A stretch of 45,137 nucleotides of DNA from Candidatus Dojkabacteria bacterium (GTDB lineage: Archaea; Nanobdellota; Nanobdellia; Pacearchaeales; GW2011-AR1), in the NCBI GenBank assembly GCA_017610445.1, contig JAFCCB010000002.1:1-45137 (forward strand). The letters run 5' to 3'. A program made the translations under genes and the position numbers. Under the pieces are notes generated by a model. It saw nothing but the letters and a program-made list of their open reading frames with translations, was not told the origin of the DNA and did no database searches. This document shows, piece by piece, positions 2,496-41,133 of this stretch; positions within the stretch are counted from its first letter, which is position 1; each line of letters starts with the position of its first letter.

Positions 2496-3521
2496 TTAGA
2501 AAGTGAAAAGTGTTTTCTGCGCTTTTTTCCTCTCTAATTCATCTAACTTCTGCAATTGCTTATCAATTCTATTCTCAGAAAATTCATATTTCATCAATAT
2601 TTTTTTAATTCTTTTTCTGTCAATCTTTGGAAATTCAACTTTAAATTTTTTATTGATTTTTGGCTTAGAGATTTCAGAATAAATCTCTTTCCACTCAAAA
2701 TTTAATTCTAATTTCTCATTTTTCTCAACAGCTTTAAAAATCTCTTCTTTTGTTTTAAACTCCTTTACAAATTTTAAAGATTTTTTAGGCCCCAACCCTT
2801 TTACCCCTCCCACATTATAATCTGTCCCGCACAAAATCCCCAGACAAATTAATTGCTCTTGATTAATCCCAAGCTCTTTTAAAACCTTTTTTAATTCAAT
2901 TATCTGAGGAAAAACTTCTGAATAACCAGAAAAAGTTTTTCTTTTCCGCGCCATACTTAAATTTTGAATTAATTTTGGCGCCTCAAACATTAAACAATCA
3001 TAATCCTGTGATGCAACTGCATAAATATCTTTTTTCTGAGCCAAATAACTAGCCTGCGCCTCTCCTTCTCCAGGCGCCTGCACAATCGCAACCCCCATCG
3101 CACTTAATAATTCTTTGCTCTCTTTAATTTTCTGCTCATCTAAATTAACATCACTTTTTGCATATTTCCCCATCCCCTTGATATCCTCTTTAGTTTTAGC
3201 TTCTTCATATTTTTCCTTATATTGCTCTTTAATTTTTTTTCTCTTTTCCCAAGTCCTGCTCTTTAATTCAGGCGCCTCGCCGTCAAAAACATAAATCAAT
3301 TTAATTCCTTCTAAAATCAACCTCATATTTCTATAAAACAAACCGCTCAAATGTGAACTAACATTTCCTTTAGAATCCCTTAAAGGAGTTCCATCTGGTT
3401 GTCTAATTGTAGTCAAAAACTGGTAAATCGCATTAAAAGCATCAACTGCAATTATTTTATCTTTCAAATCAGAAAAACTAATCTGCTTTTTTGAAATAAT
3501 TTCACTTATTTGAAGCCCCAT
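2496..3521 (-). CDS. fen: flap endonuclease 1
   Basis: AVDAFNAIYQFL, YVFDG, GEGEAQAS, SQDYD and GTDYN motifs; C-terminal PIP box QKTLFTF. Confidence 0.97.
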   Translation of the reverse strand: MGLQISEIISKKQISFSDLKDKIIAVDAFNAIYQFLTTIRQPDGTPLRDSKGNVSSHLSGLFYRNMRLILEGIKLIYVFDGEAPELKSRTWEKRKKIKEQYKEKYEEAKTKEDIKGMGKYAKSDVNLDEQKIKESKELLSAMGVAIVQAPGEGEAQASYLAQKKDIYAVASQDYDCLMFEAPKLIQNLSMARKRKTFSGYSEVFPQIIELKKVLKELGINQEQLICLGILCGTDYNVGGVKGLGPKKSLKFVKEFKTKEEIFKAVEKNEKLELNFEWKEIYSEISKPKINKKFKVEFPKIDRKRIKKILMKYEFSENRIDKQLQKLDELERKKAQKTLFTF

Positions 3522-4077: not shown

Positions 4078-6537
4078 ATGGAAATAAACTTCATCCCAAT
4101 AGATTATGATTATTTTGACTGGCAGGGAAAAAATTATGCAAAAATAATTGGAAGAACAGAGCAAGGCAAAAGTGTTTGTGTCATAGATTCTTGTCCAATT
4201 TATTTCTGGGCAATTTTAAAGCAAAAAATTTCTGAATTAAAAATTAGGCAAATTCAGCAAAAAATTGAAAAAATCAAAATAAAATCTCCTTCAAGAATCT
4301 CAAAAGTTCTAAAAACAGAAATTCACAGCAAAAAATTCTTGGGAAAATCTGTGAAAGCAATTAAAATTTTTGTAACAAACTACAAAGATGCTCATGCAAT
4401 TGCAGGCAAAATTGGCATGAAAGAAATTAATAAAAGAAGGGAATATGATTTAGGGTATATCACAAAATATATCATTGAAAGAAAATTAAAACCTCTCCAA
4501 TGGTGTAAAATCCAGGGCAAAATACTCAATAACTCACAAAAATTCGGATTTCTCGATGCTAATTTAAATGTTGATTTAGTATTAGAAGCAGAAAAAATAT
4601 CTGAAACAGCACAAAAAAACTTCTCGCCAAAAATCTTAGCTTACGATATTGAAACAGATGAATTAGAAATAGGAAAAGGAGAAATCTTAATGATTTCCCT
4701 AGTCGGAGAGAACTTTAAAAAAGTTTTAACATGGAAAAAATACCAGACAAAACTTAATTATGTAGAATGCTTTAAAGATGAGGCAGAGATGTTAGAATCT
4801 TTTGTTAAATATGTAAAAGAGTATTCTCCTGATATTTTAACAGGTTATTTCTCAGATGGTTTTGATTTGCCTTACTTAAGGGCAAGAGCTGAAAAAAATA
4901 AAATTAGATTAAATTTAGGAATTGACAATTCACAGCCAAAATTTTCAAGAGGGAGAATCCTAACTGGAAAAATAAACGGAATTGTCCATATTGATTTATT
5001 AAGATTTATTAGAAATGCATATTCTCAATATCTTAAGTCAGAAACTTTAAGTTTAAATGAAGTAGCAGGAGAACTTCTAGAAGAAAGAAAACTTAAATTT
5101 TCTCCATTAGAACAGGTAAAATTAAAAAAACCAAACTGGGAAAAGTTCTTTGAATATAATTTACAGGATTCTGTTTTAGTATATAAACTAATACAAAAAG
5201 CCTGGTCAGATTTATTAGAAATAACCAGAATTATCCAAGAGCCTTTGTTTAATATTTCAAGAAATACAATGGCAAATAATTTTGAAGAACTTATTATTCA
5301 TAATCTCCACAAATTTAATGAAATAGCAGAAAAACATCCAACTCACGAAGAAATTGGGGAAAGAAGAATGCGTCCGAAATATGAGGGGGCTTTTGTTTTT
5401 CAGCCAATACCAGGATTATATGAAAATATCTGCTTCTTTGATTTTACAAGTATGTACGCAAGTGTAATTGTTAGTTATAATTTGTCTCGTTCAACACTAA
5501 CCCAGAAGAAAAATAAAACAGATTTATATCAAGGAGAATTAGACAGAAAAAAAATTTATTTTACTAAAGAACAGGGATTTGTTCCAGAACTGTTAAAAGA
5601 AATAATAATCAAAAGAAAACAATATAAAAAAGAGTATAATAAAAATCCAAATCCTATTACAAAAGCAAGAAGCAATGCCTATAAACTTTTAGCAAATGCT
5701 GCATATGGATATCAGGGTTTTTTCGGAGCAAGGTATTATTGTGTAGAAGCAGCATCAAGCACTGCATATTTTGCAAGAAAAAACTTAAAACAGGTAATGG
5801 AACAATTAAAAAAACAGAATTTTGATTTAATTTATGGAGATACAGACTCTATTGCATTTAAATTAAACAAACATACAAAAAAACAAACCCTCCAATTATT
5901 AAATAAAATAAATAAAAAACTCCCGGGAATAATGGAGCTTGATTTAGAGGATTTTTATAAGCGGGGGATTTGGGTGACAAAAAGAACAGGCGAATTTGGA
6001 GCAAAAAAGAAATATGCATTAATCAATGAAAAAAATAAAATAAAAATCCGAGGCTTTGAAACAGTAAGAAGAGATTGGTGCAATCTTGCAAGACAAACCC
6101 AAAACAAAATCCTAAATTTAATCTTAACAACAGGAAATGAAAAAAAAGCATTGCAATATTTAAAACAAATAATTAAACAGATTAAAAAAAGAGAAATTCC
6201 ATTAAAACAATTAATTATTAGAACCCAATTAAAAAAACCAATAAATGAATATAAATCAATTCCTCCTCATGTAACAATAGCAAAAAGAATGCAGGAGCAG
6301 GAACTTCCAATTGACATAGGAATGCTTATTGAATATTATATCTCAGAAACAGAAAATAAAAAAGCATTAGTAAGAGAGCGTGCAAAAATGCCAAATGAGA
6401 AAGGAAAATATGACATCAAGTACTATTTAAACAATCAAATCCTGCCAGCAGTTGAAAATATTTTTGAAGTCTTTAAAATAAATATAAAAGAACTTGTTGA
6501 AGGAAAACAGCAGAAAAAGTTAGGCGACTTTAATTAA
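4078..6537 (+). CDS. polB: family B DNA polymerase
   Basis: ExoI YDIET, ExoII FDLPYL, motif A FDFTSMYAS, motif B KLLANAAYGY, motif C YGDTDS, KKKYA, RGFETVRRDW; C-terminal PIP-like QKKLGDF. Confidence 0.97.
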   Translation: MEINFIPIDYDYFDWQGKNYAKIIGRTEQGKSVCVIDSCPIYFWAILKQKISELKIRQIQQKIEKIKIKSPSRISKVLKTEIHSKKFLGKSVKAIKIFVTNYKDAHAIAGKIGMKEINKRREYDLGYITKYIIERKLKPLQWCKIQGKILNNSQKFGFLDANLNVDLVLEAEKISETAQKNFSPKILAYDIETDELEIGKGEILMISLVGENFKKVLTWKKYQTKLNYVECFKDEAEMLESFVKYVKEYSPDILTGYFSDGFDLPYLRARAEKNKIRLNLGIDNSQPKFSRGRILTGKINGIVHIDLLRFIRNAYSQYLKSETLSLNEVAGELLEERKLKFSPLEQVKLKKPNWEKFFEYNLQDSVLVYKLIQKAWSDLLEITRIIQEPLFNISRNTMANNFEELIIHNLHKFNEIAEKHPTHEEIGERRMRPKYEGAFVFQPIPGLYENICFFDFTSMYASVIVSYNLSRSTLTQKKNKTDLYQGELDRKKIYFTKEQGFVPELLKEIIIKRKQYKKEYNKNPNPITKARSNAYKLLANAAYGYQGFFGARYYCVEAASSTAYFARKNLKQVMEQLKKQNFDLIYGDTDSIAFKLNKHTKKQTLQLLNKINKKLPGIMELDLEDFYKRGIWVTKRTGEFGAKKKYALINEKNKIKIRGFETVRRDWCNLARQTQNKILNLILTTGNEKKALQYLKQIIKQIKKREIPLKQLIIRTQLKKPINEYKSIPPHVTIAKRMQEQELPIDIGMLIEYYISETENKKALVRERAKMPNEKGKYDIKYYLNNQILPAVENIFEVFKINIKELVEGKQQKKLGDFN

Positions 6538-6593
6538 TAAGAGTAAATTTATTAAATTAAATAACTTATTGATTAAAGGAGTTGATTTTTGAA

Positions 6594-7052
6594 ATGCAAA
6601 TAAGAAAAGCAAAACCAAAGGACTATAAAAAAATAGCAAATCTAAGAAAGAAAACTTTTGAAAAAATTAATAGTAAAGATTATTCTAAAAGACAAATTGA
6701 AATATTAAACAAGAAAAATCCTCTAAAATTAATTTTAGAAAAAATGAAAAAAAAGACATGTTTTGTATAACCGAAAATAATAAAATTTTAGGGATTATAG
6801 ATTTAGAAAAAAACAAAATTGGTGGATTATTTGTTAAATATAATTATATTAATAAGGGAATTGGTAAAAAAATTATTAACATTTATTGAAAATTTTGCAA
6901 AAAAGAAAGGAATAAAAAAAGTTCATCTTTACTCAACTAAAACCACTTATAACTTTTACATCAAACAAGAATATAAATTAATTAAAAAAAATAGATGGAG
7001 ATCTAATAAAATTAATTTTACAAGTTATAAAATGGAAAAAACTTTAAAGTGA
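6594..7052 (+). pseudogene. GNAT-family acetyltransferase interrupted by two compensating frameshifts in A-runs
   Basis: N-terminal MQIRKAK; the middle segment is in another frame (DMFCITENNKILGIIDLEKNKIGGLFVKYNYINKGIGKK, acetyl-CoA motif A); C-terminal LLTFIENFAKKKG...FYIKQEY. Shifts at A8 (~6747-6754) and A7 (~6866-6872). Confidence 0.8.
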
Positions 7053-7067
7053 ACAAGTTCTAATTTT

Positions 7068-7412
7068 CTAATCCCTCTTTATACACCTATTAATCGCCTC
7101 AACAACCTTATCATAAAAATCATTATTAATTGTGCAGAGCTTTTTCTTTATTATTTTTTCATGAATTGTAAATATCCTGTGCGGTTTTAACCAGCTTTTA
7201 AAAGGCAATCCTCCTTCTTGAAAAGAATTAATTGTTATTAATAAATCATCTTTATGAGGATTAGTAGTAATAAGACAGCAAATACGATCTTGCATTTTAT
7301 TTATTTTATTATTAGAAATAATCAAGGCAGGTCTTTGCTTTAAAGTTGTCAAATCTGAATAAGGAAAAGGAATAAGAACAATATCTTTTTGACAATAAAA
7401 TTTTGGTTCCAT
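7068..7412 (-). CDS. MazF/PemK-family endoribonuclease toxin
   Basis: DIVLIPFPYSD...KQRPALIIS...LITT signature. Confidence 0.9.
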   Translation of the reverse strand: MEPKFYCQKDIVLIPFPYSDLTTLKQRPALIISNNKINKMQDRICCLITTNPHKDDLLITINSFQEGGLPFKSWLKPHRIFTIHEKIIKKKLCTINNDFYDKVVEAINRCIKRD

Positions 7413-9620: not shown

Positions 9621-10892
9621 TTATTCTCCTTTAAACTCCACCAAACTAAAAACTTTCCATTTTTTTAATTTCTCGCGTCCACCTAAATCAGGCAAATCAA
9701 TAATAAAAGCAATTTCATAAATCTGCCCGCTCAATCTTTCAATCAAATTCGCAGAAGCACAGGCTGTCCCGCCAGTTGCAATCAAATCGTCAACAAGCAA
9801 AACTTTCTGCCCTTTTTGAATAGCATCTTTATGAATCTCAACTTTATCTGTTCCATATTCTAAAGAATATTCCTCACTTTCAGTTTCATAAGGCAACTTG
9901 CCAGGTTTTCTAATTGGAATAAAACCAACACCAAGCTTATTAGCCAAAACCCCTCCAATAATAAAACCTCTTGCTTCAATTCCTGCAACAACTTCAATTC
10001 CTTTATCCTTGTATCTATTATAAAAAATATTAATAACCTTATCAAAACTTTCTTTATCTCCTAAAAGAGTTGTAATGTCTCTAAACATAATTCCTTGTTT
10101 TGGAAAATCAGGGATTGTTCTTATTTTACTTTTAATAAATTCTGAATCTCTATTCGCAATTTTAGGCACAACCTTCAAAATTAATTGTTTAACTTTATCT
10201 GCATTCTCCTTCATTCTTTGTTTAATCATTTCCCATGTAACAGACTTCTCATCTTTTTTCCAGCAGTCATAATCAGTAACAATAGCAATTGTTTGATAAG
10301 GAATACCTGCTTCTTTTGCTAAACTACATTCAGGAACAGCAGTCATGCCAATAATATCTGCAAAATTTCTAAACATAAAACTTTCAGAACGGGTAGAAAA
10401 TCTCGGCCCTTCAATAACAAGAATTGTAGCCCAATCATGTTTTCTAAAACCAAATTCACCAACAGCATTAACTAAAATCCTCCTCAACTCTTTTGAAAAA
10501 GGATTAACCATTTCAGTATGCTTAATCTCTCCAATCTCATCATAAAAACTCAATTTTCGGGATTTAGTAAAATCAATAAATTGATTAGGAAAAACAAAAT
10601 CCCCTGGCTTGATTTTTTCTTTTAAAGAACCAACAGCGCTTGTTGCTAAAATATGTGTACATCCTAAAATTTTAAGAGCGGCAATATTTGCTCTATAATT
10701 TATCTGGCTTGGAGGAATTTTATGATTTTTGCCATGCCGTGCAAGAACACAAATATCAACACCAGAAATCTTACCAAGAATAATTTTAGAACTTGGTTTC
10801 CCATATTTTGTTTCAACCTCTTTCTCCTCATAATTAGAAATTAACTCAGGATTATCTAATCCGCTCCCACCTATTATTCCTATTTTTACCAT
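9621..10892 (-). CDS. mtnP-apt: fusion of 5'-methylthioadenosine phosphorylase (N-terminal ~245 aa) and adenine phosphoribosyltransferase (C-terminal ~170 aa)
   Basis: [22 protein letters not shown] and VTDYDCW (MTAP); [31 protein letters not shown] and [10 protein letters not shown] (APRT), all in one frame. Confidence 0.92.
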
Positions 10893-11046
10893 AAAAAAGA
10901 ACTATCAAATAAATTTAAAAGCATATGTGAGAATTAAAATAATCATTAATAATATCAATAATCTATAAAATATCAAGCTATAAAAAAACAGAGGCTCAAG
11001 TTTAAAAATCAATAAAATATTAAAACTAATAAATATTAATAATAAA

Positions 11047-11997
11047 ATGGACTACCAGCCAAAACCTCTTTTCATAAAAAGAATAACAGCCCTGCTCAAA
11101 GATAAAGCAGATACAAAACAATTCTTTGAAACAGCAAAAACCAAACCAAAAAAATCAATTAGAGTTAACACCCTTAAAATCCAACCAGAAAAATTAAAAC
11201 AAAAACTTGAAGCAAAAGGCTGGAAGCTCAAACAAATTCTGCCAAATGCTTTCCAAATACAATCACAGCTTAAACCAGGAGAATTAGGAAAAACAAAAGA
11301 ACATTTGTTAGGATATTATTATGTTCAGGAAATTACAAGCATGATGCCTATTCTAGCTTTAAATCCAAAACCAAACAACATAATCCTTGATCTTTGTGCA
11401 GCGCCAGGTTCAAAAACAACACAAACAGCAGAATTAATGCAAAATCAAGGAACAATAATCGCAAATGATTTAACAATTGGAAGAATTGCAATTTTATCTG
11501 CAAATTTAGAAAGATGCGGAATTACAAATACAATAATCACAAGACACGATGGACTGCAGTTAATAAAAATTCTCAAAAAATTAAACATGAAATTTGATAA
11601 AATTCTCATTGATGCTCCTTGCTCAGGTGAAGGAAACATCAGAACCTCTCCAAAAACATATTTAGAATGGAATGAAAATATTTTGAAGAAATTTTCAAAT
11701 AAACAAAAAAAATTAGCATCAGCTTCTATTCAACTACTTAAACCAAACAGCGAAATGATTTACTCAACATGCACTTATGCACCAGAGGAAAATGAAGAAG
11801 TAATCCAATATCTTTTAGATAACAATCCAAATATAGAAATCCAAGAAATCACATTACCAATAAAATCCCGCCCAGGAATAACAAAATGGAAAAACAAAAC
11901 CTTCTCAAATGAATTAAAAAAAGCACATAGAATCTACCATCATGACAATAATATGGAGGGATTTTTTGTTTGTAAAATAAAAAAATTATCTGATTAA
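11047..11997 (+). CDS. RsmB/NOP2-family RNA m5C methyltransferase
   Basis: LDLCAAPGSKT, DAPCSG, YSTCT, ENE and GFF motifs. Confidence 0.95.
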   Translation: MDYQPKPLFIKRITALLKDKADTKQFFETAKTKPKKSIRVNTLKIQPEKLKQKLEAKGWKLKQILPNAFQIQSQLKPGELGKTKEHLLGYYYVQEITSMMPILALNPKPNNIILDLCAAPGSKTTQTAELMQNQGTIIANDLTIGRIAILSANLERCGITNTIITRHDGLQLIKILKKLNMKFDKILIDAPCSGEGNIRTSPKTYLEWNENILKKFSNKQKKLASASIQLLKPNSEMIYSTCTYAPEENEEVIQYLLDNNPNIEIQEITLPIKSRPGITKWKNKTFSNELKKAHRIYHHDNNMEGFFVCKIKKLSD

Positions 11998-12016
11998 TAA
12001 ACTAATATCAATAACT

Positions 12017-12074
12017 AATAAAATGTTAAACTGCACAAATAAAATGTTAAACTGCACAAATAAAATGTTAAACT
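12017..12074. repeat. 21-bp tandem repeat, ~2.8 copies (aataaaatgttaaactgcaca)
   Basis: Directly visible perfect copies with no spacers. Confidence 0.9.
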
Positions 12075-14759: not shown

Positions 14760-14915
14760 ATGACATCCTCTCCACACTAAAGTGTGAAGTTTCCTTTTTA
14801 ATATCTGTTTACAATTTTTAGCTACACAAAACAGAGCTTAAGCTTCTCATCTACATATCTCAAAGTTTTGCACATTATTGATACCATATCATAAATGATA
14901 TGGATTTCTTCTGCA
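14760..14915 (-). mobile_element. non-autonomous IS200/IS605-type miniature element (PATE-like), copy 1
   Basis: Minus strand: left end TGCAGAAGAAATCCATATCA-TTTA-TGATATGG; right end GGAAACTTCACAC-TTTA-GTGTGGAGAGGATGTCAT. A second copy is at 40910-41061. Confidence 0.75.
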
Positions 14916-15093
14916 TTTAAAAAACAATTAATTCTATCACCAAAACCCTTAAATATTATAATACATTATAATAATATCCAAAAAAAACATTGACAGGTGA
15001 AGATACCACATAAAAAACAATTACAAAATTTGAAAAAGAGCTTAGAATTAAATAAATCTAATTTCCCAAAATAATAAACAATAAATATGCACA

Positions 15094-15233: not shown

Positions 15234-17453
15234 TTATTTTTTCCCCTTACTTTTTTTAGAGCCAGATAAACTCTTAGGTAACCTCTTAGGTAACCCTTTA
15301 GGAAGGCTCTTAACCAAATCCTCAATCACTTTACCTTTATTTTCACTCACACTTTTAAATGCTTCATCAAAATCATCTTTTGAGATTTTTAAAATCACTT
15401 TTTTATTAGTAGATTTATAATATCTCTTAATTGCATTCATTCCAGCAGTTCTGCAAATCATTTCAATATCTGCACCAGTCCATCCATCTGACTTATTAAC
15501 ATAATTTAAAATCTTAATTGATTTATCCAAAGGCATATTTCTCACATGAACCTCAAAAATCTTTTTTCTTGTTTCTTTATCTGGGATTTTCAATTCAACA
15601 TGAGTATCAATCCTGCCTGCTCTTAATAATGACTCATCGATAAGATCTTTTCTATTTGTCGCTGCAATAACTATAACTTTTTCTAATTCCTCAACACCAT
15701 CTAACTCGCTTAACAGCTGATTAACAACTTTTTCAGTAGAATCATTTAAAGAACTTCCTCTTGCTTTTGAAATTGAATCAAACTCATCAAAAAAAATTAT
15801 TGCAGGAGCAACCTGTCTTGCTTTTTTAAATACCTCTCTAATATGTTTTTCAGACTCTCCAACCCATTTGCTGATTAATTCAGGTCCTTTAACAGAAATG
15901 AAATTTGCATTTGCTTCTGTCGCAACTGCTTTTGCCAATAATGTCTTGCCTGTTCCAGAAGGTCCGCTTAATAAAATTCCTTTTGAAGGTTTAATCCCTG
16001 CTTTCTTAAATAAATCAGGCCTTAGCAAAGGCAGCTCTACTAACTCTCTCAACTTTGATTTAACTTCTTCCAACCCGCCAACATCATTCCACCTGACATT
16101 TGGCTTGTCAATTAAAACCTCTCTCATTGCAGATGGTTCAACCATTCTTATTGCATCAACAAAATTTTCACGAGTAACTTTGATTTTATCTAAGATTTCA
16201 GTAGGAACTCTGTCCTGCAAATTTTTTAATTTAGAAAAATATGGTTTAATCGCCTTTAAAGCAGCCTCTTTACTCAAAACTTCAACATCTGCGCCAGTAT
16301 AGCCAATTGTTTTCCTGGCAATTTCATTAAAATCAACATCCTTTGCCAAAGGCATTCCTCTTGTATGAATTCTTAAAATCTCTTTTCTGCCTTCTTCATT
16401 TGGGGGATCTATTTTTAATTCTCTGTCAAATCTCCCAGGACGTCTTAATGCCCCGTCAACATCTTCAGGACGATTTGTAGCAGCCATAACAACAACCTGC
16501 CCTCTTGATTTTAACCCATCCATTAAAGTCAAAAGCTGAGCAACAACTCTTTTTTCTGTTTGGTCTATTCCCTCAGCCCTTTTAGGTGCAATAGAATCAA
16601 TCTCATCAATAAAAATAATCGAAGGTGCATTCTTGCCTGCTTTCTCAAAAATTTCCCTGATATGTTTTTCAGACTCACCATAATACTTTGACATAATTTC
16701 TGGTCCTGCAATTGAATAAAAATTAGAATCTGTTTCAGTCGCAACTGCTTTTGCCAATAATGTCTTTCCTGTTCCAGGAGGTCCTGTTAATAAAATACCT
16801 TTTGGAGCACCAACACCTAATTTCTCAAAAATCTCTGGATTTTTCATCGGCAATTCCACCATTTCTCTGATTAACTCAATTTCATTTTTCAATCCACCAA
16901 TATCCTCATAACTAATTCCAGTTGCATTCAATTCTCCAGAAACAACTTCATCAGAAATAATTAGTTTTGTAGAAGGTGTTACAATAACATAACCTTTAGG
17001 CGAAACCTTTGAAACAACATAATTTAACCTGTTTCCAAAAACATCAATTACTGTTTTCTGTCCTGCAAATAATGGTTTATCTAATAATTTATTATGAAAA
17101 TATTCAGTTGGGTCATCGCTAAATCTAATCCCTTCCTGAGTGGGAGCCAATGTAATATTTTTTGCTTTATCAATTTTAACAGAATTTAAGATAATTTTTT
17201 CTCCAATAGATACACCAATATTAGAACGAGTAGTTCCATCTAAACGAATTACCTCTCCATTATCCTTGCTAATAGCCCTCATAACTTTAATAACTCCTGC
17301 AGATTTCTTTTTTATTTCTACAATATTCCCTGAAACTAATCCCAGAGAATTCATAACTTTTGAAGGAATTCTTGCAATTCCTTTGTCTATATCTTCCTGC
17401 AAAGATTCTATAACTGCTAATTCAATTTTTTGTTTTGATTTTTCTTTTGCCAT
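15234..17453 (-). CDS. cdc48: CDC48/VAT AAA+ ATPase, paralog 2
   Basis: N-domain plus two AAA modules ([23 protein letters not shown]; GPSGTGKT, FFDEFD); basic C-terminal tail. Confidence 0.95.
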   Translation of the reverse strand: MAKEKSKQKIELAVIESLQEDIDKGIARIPSKVMNSLGLVSGNIVEIKKKSAGVIKVMRAISKDNGEVIRLDGTTRSNIGVSIGEKIILNSVKIDKAKNITLAPTQEGIRFSDDPTEYFHNKLLDKPLFAGQKTVIDVFGNRLNYVVSKVSPKGYVIVTPSTKLIISDEVVSGELNATGISYEDIGGLKNEIELIREMVELPMKNPEIFEKLGVGAPKGILLTGPPGTGKTLLAKAVATETDSNFYSIAGPEIMSKYYGESEKHIREIFEKAGKNAPSIIFIDEIDSIAPKRAEGIDQTEKRVVAQLLTLMDGLKSRGQVVVMAATNRPEDVDGALRRPGRFDRELKIDPPNEEGRKEILRIHTRGMPLAKDVDFNEIARKTIGYTGADVEVLSKEAALKAIKPYFSKLKNLQDRVPTEILDKIKVTRENFVDAIRMVEPSAMREVLIDKPNVRWNDVGGLEEVKSKLRELVELPLLRPDLFKKAGIKPSKGILLSGPSGTGKTLLAKAVATEANANFISVKGPELISKWVGESEKHIREVFKKARQVAPAIIFFDEFDSISKARGSSLNDSTEKVVNQLLSELDGVEELEKVIVIAATNRKDLIDESLLRAGRIDTHVELKIPDKETRKKIFEVHVRNMPLDKSIKILNYVNKSDGWTGADIEMICRTAGMNAIKRYYKSTNKKVILKISKDDFDEAFKSVSENKGKVIEDLVKSLPKGLPKRLPKSLSGSKKSKGKK

Positions 17454-17506
17454 TTTTCTACCTTAGTTTTTCTACTCATAAATTTCTTTTTTCTAATTTA
17501 GTTTCT

Positions 17507-17890
17507 TTATCTTTTATTAAATGTAATTTCTAAAACTCCATTTTTAATAGTATATTTAAATTTTTTAGGATTAATAAATCTCGGGAGTGTTTTTTGAACA
17601 CTAATTCCCTGATTTAATTTTTCAGAAAAATAAGATTGTATTTTTTCTAATGAATGTTTTTTAGCTTTAACCTGAAGTTCTCTGCCTTTAACACTAACAA
17701 AAATATCTCCCTCCTCATAACCAGGAAATTCAAAAATAAGATAAACATAATTTTCATCTTCAATAAAATCAATAACTCTTTCTTCTTTTTCACCGCTAAT
17801 AATAGTATTACTTCGTTTATTTGGAACACTATTTCCTCCAAAAAATTCTCTTACAATATCTTCAAATGGATCATCATCAAAAAATCCCAT
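17507..17890 (-). CDS. small heat-shock protein (Hsp20/alpha-crystallin-like)
   Basis: FFDDDPFEDI N-terminus, EFPG, and KNGVLEITF signature. Confidence 0.85.
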   Translation of the reverse strand: MGFFDDDPFEDIVREFFGGNSVPNKRSNTIISGEKEERVIDFIEDENYVYLIFEFPGYEEGDIFVSVKGRELQVKAKKHSLEKIQSYFSEKLNQGISVQKTLPRFINPKKFKYTIKNGVLEITFNKR

Positions 17891-17908
17891 TTTTTGCCAT
17901 ATTTAAAT

Positions 17909-20197
17909 TTAACCCAGATACCCAACTGGTTGCTCTAAAGATGCTTTAGCACTCCTTAAATATTCCTGCTCTATTCTTTTATATTTCTCATTATCTGATT
18001 TTGTAACTGAAGCAGACATTTTTTTCAAAGCATCATTAAAATTTTCCATTTTAACTTCCTTGCTGTCAATATCCTTTCTTAAAGCAAGCATTGCTGCTTC
18101 GCGGACAAGAGCTTCCATGTCAGCCCCTACAAAACCACTTGTTTTTTCAATAATTTGATTTACTCTAACATCTTTTGCCAAAGGCATATTCTTAGTGTGA
18201 ATTTTAAAAATTTGTTTTCTGCCTTCTTCTGTCGGAGCAGGAGTTAATAAAATCCTGTCAAATCTTCCAGGACGAAGCAAAGCACTATCTAACATATCAG
18301 GACGATTTGTCGCGCCAATTACGATAACACTGCTTAAATCTTCAATACCATCCATTTCAGCAAGCAACTGGTTTAAAACTCTCTCAGTAACTTTTGTTCC
18401 TGTTTCCAATCCTCTTTTGCCTGCTAAAGAATCAATTTCATCAAAGAAAATAATACAAGGAGAAACCTGCCTTGCCCTTTCAAATATTTTTCTCACACCT
18501 TCTTCTGATTTTCCAACCCACATGCTTAATAAAGAAGGCCCTTTAACCTGAATAAAATTTGCCTCACTTTCTTTAGCAACTGCTTTTGCCAACAATGTCT
18601 TGCCTGTTCCAGGCGGACCATAAAGTAAAATTCCTCTCGGAGCCCTAATCCCCAAACGAGTAAATGACTCAGGATATTTCAAAGGCCATTCAACAGCCTC
18701 TTTCAAATTTTGCTTGACTTCTTCCAATCCTCCAATATCCACCCAACTAATATTAGGTGTCTCAACCATAACTTCTCTCATCGCAGACGGACGAACAACT
18801 TTCAGAGCCTCTTGAAAATCTTTTTTCCTAACCCTAAGTTCTTTCAAAATTTCCTCTGGAATTGGCTCATCTTCTTTCAATTCTAATTTAGGAAGCAGTC
18901 TTCTTAAAACAATCATAGCAGATTCTTTTGCAAGAGCAGCAATATCAGCACCGACAAACCCATGAGTTATTCCAGCAAAATAATCTAAATTAACATCTTT
19001 TGTCAAGGGCATATTTCTTGTATGAATTTTCAAAATCTGCAATCTGCCATTTTTATCAGGAACTCTAAGCTCTACCTCTCTGTCAAATCTCCCAGGACGC
19101 CTTAACGCAGAATCAATAGCATTAGGACGATTAGTTGCACCAATAACAACAACCTTTCCCCTTGACTGCAAACCATCCATCATTGTTAATAATTGTGAAA
19201 CAACTCTCCTCTCAACCTCCCCCCCAACATCCTCTCTTTTAGGAGCAATAGCATCAATTTCATCAATAAAAATAATTGACGGAGAATTTTTCTCAGCCTC
19301 ATCAAAAATATCCCTAATTTTTTTCTCACTCTCTCCATAAAACTTGCTCATTACTTCTGGCCCATTTAACAAAATAAAATTTGCCTCTGATTCATTTGCA
19401 ACTGCCTTTGCCAGCAAAGTCTTTCCACACCCAGGAGGTCCATGCAATAAAACTCCTTTTGGTGGCTCAACACCTAATCTCTCAAAAATCTCAGGGTGCT
19501 TTAATGGAACTTCAACCATTTCCCTTACTTTTTTAACTTCTTCTTTCAATCCACCAATATCCTCATAAGTTACTTCAAGGATATTTTCTTTAGAAATCTC
19601 TACAGGTTTATTGCTAAAAACAACTTCTGTATTTTCAGTTATTATGCACGGAACAGAAGGATTTGTATTTACAATCAAAAATCTAATTTGTTGCAGTCCA
19701 CCTAAACCCATTCCTCCAAAAGCATCTCCAAAAACATCCCCAAAATTGCCAAATAAATTTTCTAAATCTTCTGACATTAAATCCCGTCTTCTTCTAACAC
19801 CCCCCAAAACAACAATATCTCCTTTTAAAACTGCTCTCCCTAATAAACCTGGCTTTAAATTTCCCTGAATCATAATTCCTCTTTGAGCAGGGGCAATAAT
19901 CACTTTTTTAGCTTCTTTAATATTTGCCTTTTTAACAATAACATTTTCAGAAACCCCTGTATGAGAATTTTTTCTGATAATTCCATCAATCCTAATTATT
20001 CCCTCGCCAACATCTGCAGGATAAGCCTTATCTGCAATTGCAACTGTCTCTTTTCCGCCTTTAATTAAAATAACATCTCCTCTTTTAATTCCCAATTCTT
20101 TCATAACTTCAAAATCAATTCTTGCAATGCCTTTGTATGCATCATCTTGAAGAGCTTCTGAGACTCTTAACTTAACTCCCTGATTTATGTTTATCAT
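17909..20197 (-). CDS. cdc48: CDC48/VAT AAA+ ATPase, paralog 1
   Basis: [13 protein letters not shown]-domain, [16 protein letters not shown] and two SRH motifs; C-terminal GYLG. Confidence 0.97.
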
Positions 20198-38656: not shown

Positions 38657-39011
38657 TTTTCCTCTTTTCTCTTACAAGATACTAATACTATTTAAATATA
38701 TGGAGAAATTATACAAATCATAAGTGCCCCCACCACCAACCATCCACTTTTGGTATTGTAAGGGGACAACTTTTGTTTTAATTGATATTTATTTTATCGT
38801 TGCTGTTAATGGATGCTTAGAATTTATAAATATTGTTGAGATTAATTATATCGATTTTGTTTATTTTGGATAGAACACTTTTTCGCAATATCCTTCTTTT
38901 TGAAGAGATGCTAGGAACTTTAAAAAATTAGAACCATTTATATTTTTTATTGTGCTAGTTTAGCAATCAATTATATTCCTTAATTGCCTAAGATTATCTT
39001 GATATTCTTTC

Positions 39012-39758
39012 TTACCTAACAGCTTCAAATTCAGAATTTTCAGACACAACGCTTTCGGCGTTAAAAACCACCACCCGACCATAGTCGCCGGAATAAGCAA
39101 GGCCATCATAGTTGGAACCCCAGCAGCCACCCCTGTCCAGATAAACCCCCGACAACCCTTTATCTTTAGTCCATAATGTTTTTGCTTTATTTCCAACCTG
39201 AATTTTATCTTTTCCGTAAGCAAATCTTGGGTCATTTACTGCAACAGTGTTGTCTCCTATTTGCACTAATATTCCATAATAATTATCTCCATTATAATCC
39301 CTAGTTAATTCAAGCCCTGAAAGAACTAAAGGGTTATCTGAAGAAAACTCTAATCCTCTTTCTCTTGCCTGCCCGACTAAATTTTCCAAAATCTGAGTAT
39401 TATTTTTCCACGAAGGAGTATCTGTTCTTAAAATTAATTCAGGAGTATCTGTGTAAATTCCATTAAAAAAAGAATTGTCTGCATCATAAATTTTTCCAAG
39501 ATCAGCTAATCTTGCAACTCTTTGACCTTTAGGAAGATATAATTCTGCTTCAGTATTAAAGAAAAATTGTGAACCAGTTCCTTCTTTAGTATTAACTCCA
39601 TTCATTACTGTTTGATAAGCCCTAGAATCTTTACCAAATTTTTCTGCTGTGCCTTCAGCTACTGCCTGATATAACTTAGCATCTGCATAAAAGGCTTCAA
39701 AACCTCGAATCACTTGAGGTTCAACTTTTACTCTATTTATCATAATAAAAATACACAA
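39012..39758 (-). CDS. putative DGR variable (target) protein with a C-terminal CLec-type variable region; start probably ATG at 39743
   Basis: C-terminal GLSGVYLDRGGCWGSNYDGLAYSGDYGRVVV encoded by a GC-rich block of NNY codons and followed by a GAA-loop hairpin. Confidence 0.65.
   Translation of the reverse strand: MCIFIMINRVKVEPQVIRGFEAFYADAKLYQAVAEGTAEKFGKDSRAYQTVMNGVNTKEGTGSQFFFNTEAELYLPKGQRVARLADLGKIYDADNSFFNGIYTDTPELILRTDTPSWKNNTQILENLVGQARERGLEFSSDNPLVLSGLELTRDYNGDNYYGILVQIGDNTVAVNDPRFAYGKDKIQVGNKAKTLWTKDKGLSGVYLDRGGCWGSNYDGLAYSGDYGRVVVFNAESVVSENSEFEAVR
39048..39158 (-). other. putative DGR variable region with downstream stem-loop
   Basis: VR-like block at ~39063-39158; AACGCC-GAA-AGCGTT hairpin at 39048-39062. 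Confidence 0.6.
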
Positions 39759-39884
39759 AAATAGTTTATAAATCTTTTTATCTTGTTACTATTTAATAAT
39801 TAATATTATTTTATTTAACCTTCCCTATACAAAAACATCAACATAGGCATAACTTCATCTTTTTTAGATAGCTCTCTTAAAGCC

Positions 39885-40909: not shown

Positions 40910-41061
40910 ATGATATCCTCTCCACACTAAAGTGTGAAGTTTCCTTAATATCTCTTTGCAATTTTAATTTACACACAATAGAACTTAAGATTCTCATCTA
41001 CATATCTCAAAGTTTTGCACATTATTAATACATATCATAAATGATATGGATTTCTTCTGCA
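40910..41061 (-). mobile_element. non-autonomous IS200/IS605-type miniature element, copy 2
   Basis: Same terminal hairpins and a closely similar core to 14760-14915, with unrelated flanks. Confidence 0.75.
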
Positions 41062-41133
41062 ATTAATCAAAAAATTTTAAATTAAATTTATCTTCTTAAA
41101 ATTCAAAAGAATAATCACTTAGATTTTCTAAAA

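What the first reader, a model, noticed from the sequence alone, without database searches (positions are those of the whole stretch)
39012..39758. Orphan (remote) DGR target gene with variable region and GRA-loop hairpin
Seen: in an otherwise very AT-rich gene, the last ~100 bp become GC-rich. They read GGG TTG TCG GGG GTT TAT CTG GAC AGG GGT GGC TGC TGG GGT TCC AAC TAT GAT GGC CTT GCT TAT TCC GGC GAC TAT GGT CGG GTG GTG. The candidate variable codons end in C/T (NNY), the pattern expected from adenine-specific mutagenesis of AAY template codons. The block is followed by AACGCC-GAA-AGCGTT. Known: nanoarchaeal DGRs diversify the C-terminal region of CLec-fold proteins and use a GRA-triloop hairpin next to the VR. 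Inference: no reverse transcriptase, Avd or template repeat is in this 45 kb, so the gene would be diversified in trans or is a relic.
Basis: partly seen in the sequence, partly recalled or inferred. Interest (0 to 1): 0.75.

Follow-up and report, generated by a model that had tools for sequence, protein, structure and literature searches.

The report
Orphaned DGR target gene, retroelement deleted
This archaeal gene once had its tip rewritten by a mutagenic retroelement, but the template and enzyme that did the rewriting have been cut out beside it, leaving a frozen relic of a kind already reported.

Summary
The minus-strand gene 39012-39743 ends in a 59% GC block with NNY codons, followed by a short hairpin. 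It belongs to a family of diversity-generating retroelement (DGR) variable proteins common in this DPANN (Pacearchaeota-type) genus. It models confidently as a C-type-lectin-like fold.

It is best read as a relic, not an active remote target. In 9 of 11 related contigs the 73-84% identical ortholog is followed directly by a template repeat (TR) and a reverse transcriptase (RT). The other two contigs are too short to tell. In the window the homology runs past the stop codon and breaks at about 38889|38888. It resumes with the last 19 RT codons and the cassette's 3' hairpin. About 1.2 kb holding the TR and RT codons 1-325 is therefore gone.

The 833 kb bin has no cognate TR. A second, complete DGR on contig C19 has a non-cognate TR, and its RT is frameshifted in an (AG)8 tract. 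The window copy also has a broken hairpin closing pair and a truncated tail. An unassembled twin cassette cannot be excluded.

"Partial DGRs" of this kind were described in Nanoarchaeota in 2015. The deletion scar and the cross-genus spread of the cassette are new details.

The parts
39012..39743 (-). Orphaned DGR variable-protein gene, 243 aa. It has an intact ORF, but the C-terminal tail is cut about 20 aa short of orthologs by a 4-nt insertion that creates the stop.
   Evidence: There are 39 homologs, the closest 84% identical. The AlphaFold model has pLDDT 92.4. VIA-align top hits are DGR variable proteins and C-type lectins.
39744..39810 (-). Upstream region conserved with the ortholog cassettes, including a TTTATAAA box about 30 nt before the ATG. 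This is the 5' end of the homologous module.
   Evidence: Homology to the ortholog loci starts at about 39805-39816.
39071..39152 (-). Variable region core, 82 nt, in the same register as the family's TR/VR pairs.
   Evidence: All 10 positions homologous to TR AAY codons are NNY. There are 16-30 non-adenine mismatches to every one of the 18 TRs on hand.
39063..39080 (-). GC-rich 3' end of the VR (GGT CGG GTG GTG GTT TTT), the IMH-like element. Family TRs read ..GA ATG GC.. at this place.
   Evidence: The VR-type GGGTGG against TR-type GAATGG or TAATGG difference is seen in all pairs. Paul 2015 reports TGGGGT against TGGAAT.
39048..39062 (-). In-gene hairpin AACGC-CGAAA-GCGTT, encoding N-A-E-S-V. 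A G-to-A difference breaks the loop-closing pair that is present in all 11 ortholog loci.
38890..39011 (-). Spacer of the former cassette. It still holds the orthologs' tail codons, out of frame behind the premature stop, and has one further 1-nt indel.
   Evidence: It is 78-79% identical to L040 10664-10833 and its equivalents.
38888..38889 (.). Deletion junction, placed to within 1-2 nt. About 1.2 kb of the ancestral cassette is missing here (L040 about 10848-12046). That stretch holds the whole TR and RT codons 1 to about 325.
   Evidence: pairwise local alignments to L040, L038 and L044..
38832..38888 (-). Remnant of the last 19 codons of the DGR reverse transcriptase gene.
   Evidence: By tblastn, residues 327-345 of the L040 RT match at 79% identity. 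By blastn, window 38889-38725 matches the RT 3' end plus flank of 7 loci at 77-83% identity, E about 1e-27 to 1e-37.
38726..38770 (-). Conserved GC-rich imperfect hairpin that ends the module. Homology to every ortholog locus stops right after its last base (GGGGGC in the window, GGGAGC or GCGAGC in orthologs).
   Evidence: Six different downstream contexts diverge at the same nucleotide.

Best explanation
The gene is the surviving variable-protein gene of a three-part DGR cassette: target gene, template repeat (TR), reverse transcriptase (RT). In the intact cassette the RT copies the TR RNA into cDNA and misreads adenines. The cDNA then replaces the VR at the 3' end of the target gene, guided by the GC-rich IMH-like end and the hairpin just behind it. 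This rewrites about 10 AAY-derived codons on the binding face of a C-type-lectin-like protein.

In this genome a deletion of about 1.2 kb removed the TR and all but the last 19 codons of the RT. The VR is therefore frozen in the last state written by a TR that differed from every TR on hand. The cassette lineage is not the genus's own and was most likely acquired horizontally as a discrete module.

Shown: homology, the scar, the absence of a cognate TR in the bin, the fold, and the state of the cis elements. Inferred: that the VR was written by a now-lost TR, that it is no longer diversified, and that the cassette arrived by transfer.
For: (1) Family membership. tblastn finds one paralog in the genome, on C19, next to a TR and RT. 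Its TR/VR pair has 16 mismatches in 85 nt, all at TR adenines.

(2) Orthologs. In 9 of 11 ortholog loci (about 5 distinct sequence versions, 73-84% aa identity) an RT starts about 350 nt behind the gene. The other two loci end 134 and 276 nt after the gene. A TR with adenine-specific mismatches lies in between in 8 of the 9.

(3) Scar. Window 39080-38906 aligns to the cassette up to about 120 nt past the stop. Window 38889-38725 aligns to the RT's 3' end plus flank. tblastn recovers RT residues 327-345.

(4) No cognate TR. blastn and an adenine-tolerant ungapped scan of all 72 contigs find none. The best non-self placements have 10-12 non-A mismatches in 80 nt, all in A-rich low-complexity DNA. 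The window VR has 16-30 non-A mismatches to 18 TRs, whereas cognate pairs have 0-4.

(5) No second RT. The only matches are C19 and the 19-codon remnant.

(6) Signs of decay. The hairpin closing pair is lost, uniquely among the window and 11 ortholog loci, and AESV replaces AEGV. There is a premature stop and an indel in the tail.

(7) The only RT in the bin is split by a frameshift in an (AG)8 tract.

(8) Transfer. Pre-VR codons have dS 0.20-0.26 to orthologs from genomes whose SecY is only 64-66% identical. Same-genus SecY is 78-79% identical, yet same-genus family members are at most 40% identical to this gene.

Against: - The bin is 88.8% complete and keeps only contigs of 2 kb or more. 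A second intact copy, or an intact allele in part of the population, could have assembled as a discarded short contig. One related contig does carry the module twice.
- No sequencing run holding this strain was served, so neither the junction nor VR polymorphism could be checked with reads.
- The body of the gene shows no clear relaxation. dN/dS is 0.26-0.47 for window pairs against 0.16-0.34 for most ortholog pairs. dN to the outgroup L044 is 0.153, against 0.128-0.152 for the others.
- The hairpin still folds at -4.6 kcal/mol, close to the orthologs' -4.7 to -6.5.
- Tail truncation is also seen in a homolog: P0002 is 247 aa.
Confidence: 0.7

Rival explanations
1. Active remote target. A second, intact copy of the same cassette (cognate TR plus RT) sits in the unassembled part of the genome or in other cells of the population, and still rewrites this VR in trans.
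For: - The bin is 88.8% complete, with 72 contigs, all 2 kb or longer.
- The module is duplicated within one 218.8 kb related contig: 5.6 kb at 99.2% identity, about 52 kb apart.
- One candidate non-adjacent target exists in the genus. The G032 C150 copy has 13 adenine and 4 other mismatches to the TR on C140.
- The ORF, the upstream region and a foldable hairpin are kept.
- Non-adjacent targets are documented for 45 of 372 DGRs (PMC5758913, passages read).
Against: - No second RT and no cognate TR were found in 833 kb.
- The hairpin closing pair, conserved in 11 of 11 ortholog loci, is broken here.
- The tail is frameshifted.
- The VR differs from all known TRs at 16 or more non-adenine positions.
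Confidence: 0.2
2. Trans target of the DGR on contig C19. The genome's one assembled RT and TR rewrite this paralogous VR as well.
For: - Same protein family, 30-34% identity over the full length.
- Same VR register and same hairpin position.
- The 3' ends are similar: GGT CGG GTG G in the window against TR GGC AGA ATG G.
Against: - The window VR against the C19 TR gives 40 matches, 18 adenine mismatches and 24 other mismatches in 82 nt. The cognate C19 VR gives 66, 16 and 0.
- A homing event would have overwritten the window's CTG, TGG and CTT GCT codons.
- The C19 RT is frameshifted as assembled.
Confidence: 0.03
3. Assembly artefact. The cassette is intact in the cell, and the 1.2 kb gap is a mis-join in the metagenome assembly.
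For: The contig is from a metagenome-assembled bin. VR and TR are imperfect repeats, which can confuse assemblers. No reads were available to check.
Against: - The junction (about 38889|38888) lies about 120 nt downstream of the stop and joins to the RT 3' end. It is not within the VR/TR repeat, and no repeat is seen at the two break points.
- Independent decay marks, the hairpin change and the tail indels, lie outside the junction.
Confidence: 0.05

Closest known systems
Partial DGRs ('fragments') of DUSEL4 Nanoarchaeota (Paul et al. 2015, Nat Commun, PMC4372165; section 6 and discussion passages read)
   Same: - A target gene with a VR and cis elements but no RT nearby.
- The hairpin lies inside the target gene and has a GRA-type loop.
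- The IMH is GGG-type against a GAA-type IMH* in the TR.
- The authors posed the same question: fossil, or remotely diversified.
   Different: - Here a deletion scar (RT 3' remnant plus cassette end) shows that TR and RT were once directly downstream, which favours the fossil reading.
- The host is a different DPANN lineage (Pacearchaeota-type).
- There is no sequence match to the solved nanoarchaeal protein.
CLec-fold DGR variable proteins: TaqVP (5vf4), nanoarchaeal AvpA (5ioo), TvpA (2y3c), Mtd (1yu0)
Non-adjacent or remote DGR targets, such as the Treponema denticola DGR (Wu et al. 2018, NAR, PMC5758913; passages read)
   Same: A VR-bearing gene located away from any RT in a genome that does hold a DGR.
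   Different: Remote targets are defined by adenine-only differences to a TR elsewhere in the genome. That criterion was tested here and is not met.
Integron gene cassettes with attC hairpins, including archaeal integrons (Ghaly et al. 2022; only the search listing was seen).
   Same: - A discrete module ends in an imperfect hairpin.
- Six different downstream contexts diverge at the same nucleotide.
- The module is shared across genera at low synonymous divergence.
   Different: - No R'/R'' core sites were recognised by eye.
- No integron integrase was found. The bin has one tyrosine recombinase hit.
- The hairpin has weak fold statistics: z = -0.7, 13 pairs, 1 compensatory change in 4 sequences.
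- No attC model was run.

Membership tests
DGR variable (target) protein gene | Homology to genes that lie next to a DGR-type RT and a TR | tested here: met
   In 9 of 11 ortholog loci the RT lies directly downstream, and the 2 without are too short to tell. In 10 of 19 other genomes with a family hit, the RT lies within the 1.5 kb fetched. The genome's own paralog on C19 has one too.
DGR variable (target) protein gene | VR at the 3' end of the ORF whose variable codons correspond to AAY codons of the TR | tested here: met
   The register is the same as in 21 family VR/TR pairs. All 10 positions homologous to AAY are NNY.
DGR variable (target) protein gene | C-type-lectin-like fold carrying the VR | tested here: met
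DGR variable (target) protein gene | IMH-like GC-rich end and a hairpin with a GRA/GRNA loop just downstream of the VR | tested here: inconclusive
   The element is at the family's position, with GAA at the loop centre. The closing C-G pair is replaced by C.A, giving a 5-bp stem and a 5-nt loop.
Active DGR target (adjacent or remote) | A TR in the same genome that differs from the VR only at adenines | tested here: not met
   None was found in 72 contigs (833 kb) by blastn or by an adenine-tolerant scan. The C19 TR has 24 non-A mismatches in 82 nt. The bin is 88.8% complete.
Active DGR target (adjacent or remote) | Population-level hypervariability restricted to the VR | not testable with these tools
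   No served run holds this strain; word shares were 0.07 or less. Only relatives' unitigs could be laid.
Partial DGR / DGR fossil | Target gene, VR and cis elements present, with RT and TR absent from the locus | tested here: met
   No RT or TR lies in the 45 kb. A 19-codon RT remnant and the cassette's 3' end flank a deletion junction at about 38889|38888.
Integron-type gene cassette | attC recombination site with R''/L''-L'/R' arms, and an integron integrase | tested here: inconclusive
   A precise shared 3' boundary at a conserved imperfect hairpin is seen in 6 contexts. No core sites were recognised, no attC model was run, and the bin has only one tyrosine recombinase hit.

The most novel reading that the evidence does not exclude
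The window may catch a step in how DGRs gain non-adjacent targets. A discrete target-TR-RT module ends in a conserved hairpin and moves between DPANN genera. If it is duplicated and one copy then loses TR and RT by deletion, the remaining gene is a ready-made remote target, still serviced by the twin's TR. On this reading the orphan here is not dead. It would be rewritten from an unassembled twin, and only when a phase-variable RT is switched on. RT genes of this genus carry poly-G, poly-C or (GA)n tracts at one fixed site, and 14 of 18 tract-bearing genes are out of frame.
Probability: 0.15. Interest if true: 0.6.

Novelty: new member of a known kind. Interest (0 to 1): 0.35.

Why it matters
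DGRs are the only known natural system of targeted protein hypermutation in prokaryotes, and they are unusually common in DPANN archaea.

- The case shows with sequence evidence, not just the absence of an RT, how a variable-protein gene is orphaned: a single 1.2 kb deletion takes out the template and the enzyme.
- The same cassette lineage is shared between genera at low synonymous divergence.
- It offers a frozen VR for comparison with diversifying orthologs.
- It warns that surveys which call targets only next to an RT will miss such genes, and that VR-like ends alone do not show activity.

The side observation that DGR RT genes of this genus carry hypermutable tracts at one site could matter more than the relic itself, if reads confirm it.

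Tried and rejected
- TR search: blastn of the VR against the genome gave self only. An adenine-tolerant ungapped scan gave nothing better than A-rich noise.
- Pfam: 0 families for the window protein and for the L040 ortholog.
- PDB by sequence, using a 39-sequence profile: 0 hits at E <= 10.
- Foldseek against PDB: no hit at E <= 0.001.
- Sequencing runs: 4 runs held 0.05-0.07 of the words. When laid at 80% likeness they gave only short unitigs of relatives. The thin cover over 39023-39163 is not evidence of anything.
- Viral contigs: no relative found.
- Empty-site reconstruction: in 11 same-genus loci around the RadB-like neighbour, the downstream side is not conserved and none holds a family gene. 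No clean insertion site could be defined.
- Avd: two strong 23S_rRNA_IVP hits on contig C71 sit inside a sugar-nucleotide operon, not beside an RT or TR. They were rejected as DGR parts. No Avd-sized ORF lies in the roughly 290-350 nt between target and RT.
- The G016 'remote' copy (L030) was rejected as remote. The end of its contig overlaps the start of the DGR contig by 83 identical bases, so it is a tandem neighbour.
- Selection: pairwise dN/dS and outgroup distances gave no clear sign of relaxed selection on the gene body.
- attC idea: the hairpin fold is weak, and no integrase was found beyond one tyrosine recombinase.
- Literature: a search for phase-variable DGR RTs listed no paper describing one (listing only).

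Full report
OBSERVATION. The finding lies on the minus strand. The ORF is 39012..39758 (TTG start). The ATG that aligns with all orthologs is at 39743, giving 243 aa. The quoted 30 codons are at 39069-39158. The 82-nt core that corresponds to the family's template/variable repeat (39071-39152) is 58.5% GC and 12% A, in a genome of 28.5% GC. The hairpin is at 39048-39062. Its innermost pair is a C.A mismatch, so it folds as a 5-bp stem with a CGAAA loop (-4.6 kcal/mol, z = -1.8), not as a 6-bp stem with a GAA triloop. The protein has no Pfam match.

THE GENOME HAS A DGR, ON ANOTHER CONTIG. The window is contig C45 of a bin of 833 kb, 72 contigs, 88.8% complete. A search for the RT family finds one gene, on contig C19. 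That locus is a complete cassette next to SecY and L15:
- a 266-aa gene at C19:4961-5761, which is the only paralog of the window gene in the genome (30-34% identity over the full length);
- a hairpin AGTGGC-GAA-GCCACT;
- a TR 408 nt downstream of the VR;
- an RT.
Its TR and VR differ at 16 of 85 positions, all at TR adenines. The RT is in two overlapping ORFs, with the frame broken in an (AG)8 tract. This TR is not cognate to the window VR. In the common 82-nt register there are 40 matches, 18 adenine mismatches and 24 other mismatches. Neither blastn nor an adenine-tolerant ungapped scan of both strands of all contigs finds any other candidate TR.

THE FAMILY. In 61 genomes of the genus and order (G000 included), 20 have a family member, as do 16 of 36 same-genus genomes. 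None exceeds 40% identity to the window gene. In 10 of the 19 other genomes with a hit, a DGR RT lies within the 1.5 kb fetched. All VR/TR pairs share one register, running from TCN-AGG to GGY-MGR-RTG-G. Counting these together with the ortholog pairs described next gives 21 pairs (17 distinct), with 3-19 adenine mismatches and 0-4 other mismatches in 82 nt. The hairpin sits four codons after the G-R of GRVV and encodes (S/N)(G/A)E(A/G)(T/V). One copy in G032, on another contig, matches that genome's TR with 13 adenine and 4 other mismatches, so it is a candidate non-adjacent target. A second apparent case in G016 is a tandem neighbour split by a contig break, shown by an 83-nt identical overlap.

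ORTHOLOGS AND THE SCAR. The large protein collection holds 39 homologs, the closest 84% identical. In the alignment the first 200 or so residues are well conserved, and the differences pile up at fixed positions of the last 35 residues. Eleven loci with 73-84% identical orthologs were fetched, amounting to about five distinct sequence versions. Eight come from metagenome contigs and three from MAGs labelled Woesearchaeota or Nanoarchaeota. In 9 of the 11 an RT (55-65% identical to the C19 RT) starts about 350 nt behind the gene. The other two loci end 134 and 276 nt after the gene. Eight of the nine have a TR in between with adenine-specific mismatches. In L042 the ungapped scan missed it.

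Translated comparison finds no synteny outside about 39009-39858. A small-word blastn shows two blocks downstream of the VR. Window 39080-38906 matches the cassette from the VR end to about 120 nt past the stop. Window 38889-38725 matches the last codons of the RT and the 140 nt or so behind it. tblastn recovers RT residues 327-345 at 38888-38832 (79% identity). Pairwise alignments place the junction at 38889|38888, to within 1-2 nt. The missing stretch corresponds to L040 about 10848-12046. It holds the whole TR (10954-11044) and RT codons 1 to about 325 of 346. The gene's own TR and RT were therefore once directly behind it and have been deleted.

STATE OF THE ORPHAN.
- The upstream region with its TTTATAAA box and the ORF body are intact.
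- The tail is not. A 4-nt insertion creates the stop at 39012-39014. The orthologs' last 20 or so codons follow out of frame, with one more 1-nt indel.
- The hairpin's closing G is A here and in none of the 11 ortholog loci. At protein level AESV replaces AEGV, which is unique among the close homologs.
- The VR's constant codons differ from every ortholog TR (CTG for TTC, TGG for GTC, CTT GCT for TTG CAG, and several AAY wobble bases). That gives 17-23 non-adenine mismatches, against 3-18 between non-cognate ortholog pairs and 0-4 for cognate pairs.
- The 27 nt before the VR and the 45 nt after it are nearly identical to the orthologs.
- Triple changes within single codons next to near-identical flanks point to a distinct, now lost, TR and not to point-mutation drift. 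This step is inferred.
- Pairwise dN/dS of the pre-VR codons is 0.26-0.47 for window pairs and 0.16-0.34 for most ortholog pairs. dN to the outgroup L044 is about the same for all. There is no clear relaxation.

ORIGIN. Pre-VR codons have dS 0.20-0.26 to four ortholog versions. Yet the genomes that hold these orthologs have SecY only 64-66% identical to this genome's, while same-genus genomes have 78-79%. The cassette lineage is thus far more similar than the host genomes, and transfer between lineages is the simplest reading (inferred). The module has a precise 3' end. Six different downstream contexts (L040; L041=L042=L046; L038; L039; L044=L047; the window) diverge at the same nucleotide, right after a conserved GC-rich imperfect hairpin. 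One 218.8 kb contig carries a 5.6 kb segment including the module twice. I could confirm only the sharp boundary. I found no attC core sites by eye and no integron integrase, and the bin has one tyrosine recombinase hit.

FOLD. With a 39-sequence alignment, AlphaFold gives pLDDT 92.4 and pTM 0.89. Foldseek against the PDB has no hit at E <= 0.001. Its weak top rows are C-type lectins, and the nanoarchaeal AvpA (5ioo) is at rank 39. VIA-align against 48,161 representative chains gives these DGR variable proteins:

COMPARISON WITH WHAT IS KNOWN.
- Paul et al. 2015 (PMC4372165; section 6 and discussion passages read) describe, in DUSEL4 Nanoarchaeota, in-gene hairpins with GRA loops and TGGGGT/TGGAAT IMH/IMH* pairs. 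[quoted passage not shown]
- Wu et al. 2018 (PMC5758913, passages) define non-adjacent targets by adenine-only differences to a TR elsewhere. That criterion fails here.
- Roux et al. 2021 (PMC8144416, passages) state that their survey could not detect remote targets.
- Dombrowski et al. 2019 (PMC6349945, passage) note that DGRs are prevalent in Pacearchaeota and Woesearchaeota, citing Paul et al. 2017, which the library does not hold.
The window is therefore a new member of a known kind. What it adds is the scar that decides for 'fossil' at this locus, together with the evidence of cassette transfer.

WHAT REMAINS OPEN. No served sequencing run holds this strain, so the junction and VR polymorphism are unchecked. 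A twin cassette in the missing 11% of the genome, or on a discarded short contig, is not excluded. I put the relic at 0.70, an unassembled cognate TR at 0.20, an assembly artefact at 0.05 and the C19 TR at 0.03.

SIDE OBSERVATION. I examined 42 distinct DGR RT genes of the genus between the DIKHYF and MPLGNLTSQ motifs.
- All 22 without a long simple-sequence tract are in frame.
- Of 18 with a tract of 8 nt or more at that one site (poly-G 8-12, one poly-C 11, (GA)n of 8-11 units), 14 are out of frame and 4 are in frame.
- One further gene with an interrupted G tract is also out of frame, and one was set aside for masked bases.
In a 28% GC genome such tracts at a fixed site suggest an on/off switch of the RT by slippage. 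Homopolymer assembly error is the alternative, and it needs reads to exclude. One literature search listed no paper describing this.

Noticed in passing
G000 contig C19:4961-7133 (locus L007), outside the window: A complete DGR lies next to SecY and L15. It has a 266-aa target gene, a VR at 5536-5620, a hairpin AGTGGC-GAA-GCCACT, a TR at 5944-6028 (16 adenine-only mismatches in 85 nt) and an RT split into ORFs 6053-6667 and 6633-7133 by a frameshift in an (AG)8 tract. No Avd-sized ORF is present.
   Followed up: yes
Loci L064-L109 (DGR RT genes of 33 of 49 genomes of the genus); own copy at C19 about 6636-6655: RT genes carry poly-G (8-12), poly-C (11) or (GA)n (8-11 units) tracts at one fixed site, 15-25 codons before the LGNLTSQ motif. 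Of 18 tract-bearing genes, 14 are out of frame there. All 22 genes without a tract are in frame. This points to phase-variable control of DGR activity, or to systematic assembly error.
   Followed up: partly
L044:3621-3710 and L047:3639-3728 (ortholog cassettes): The TR of this cassette version is almost a copy of its VR. It has 3 adenine mismatches and only 16 adenines, against 25-29 in other TRs, and carries GAC/TGG/GGC-type codons where other TRs have AAY. The template seems to have been overwritten or 'de-adenylated', which would cripple diversification even though the RT is intact.
   Followed up: no
window 38726-38770; L040:12170-12213 and the equivalent places in L038, L039, L041, L042, L044, L046, L047: The DGR module ends at a conserved GC-rich imperfect hairpin, and six different downstream contexts diverge at the same nucleotide after it. 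L040 and L041 are two copies of a 5.6 kb segment on one 218.8 kb contig. This suggests a site-specific recombination or mobile-module boundary.
   Followed up: partly
window 38727 and 39883; contig C9 at 20196, 22175 and 23934: GC-rich hairpins of the form CCCCCACC-N(12-33)-GGTGGG or AAGGGG recur. The 10-mer GCCCCCACCA occurs 5 times in a 28% GC genome, where about 0.01 is expected. Two copies in direct orientation bracket the orphan module, and three copies sit about 2 kb apart on C9.
   Followed up: partly
G000 contig C71:1085-1447 and 2701-3066: Two strong Avd-like (23S_rRNA_IVP four-helix-bundle) genes are interleaved with a UDP-GlcNAc 2-epimerase and an epimerase/cupin gene on a 3.1 kb contig. 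They are not linked to any RT or TR.
   Followed up: partly
window 14798-14927 and 40945-41073: A direct repeat of about 130 nt at 89-91% identity lies 26 kb apart. The second copy is between the RadB-like gene and the RNA polymerase subunit L-like gene.
   Followed up: no
window 15527-19535: Four diverged copies (60-77% identity) of an 820-nt unit form two pairs. They look like tandem paralogous genes.
   Followed up: no
G013 contig C1:26840-27325 (L033): A family member lies just downstream of that genome's DGR RT, but its VR does not match the TR (19 or more non-adenine mismatches in 90 nt). This may be another orphan or fossil inside an otherwise intact cassette.
   Followed up: no
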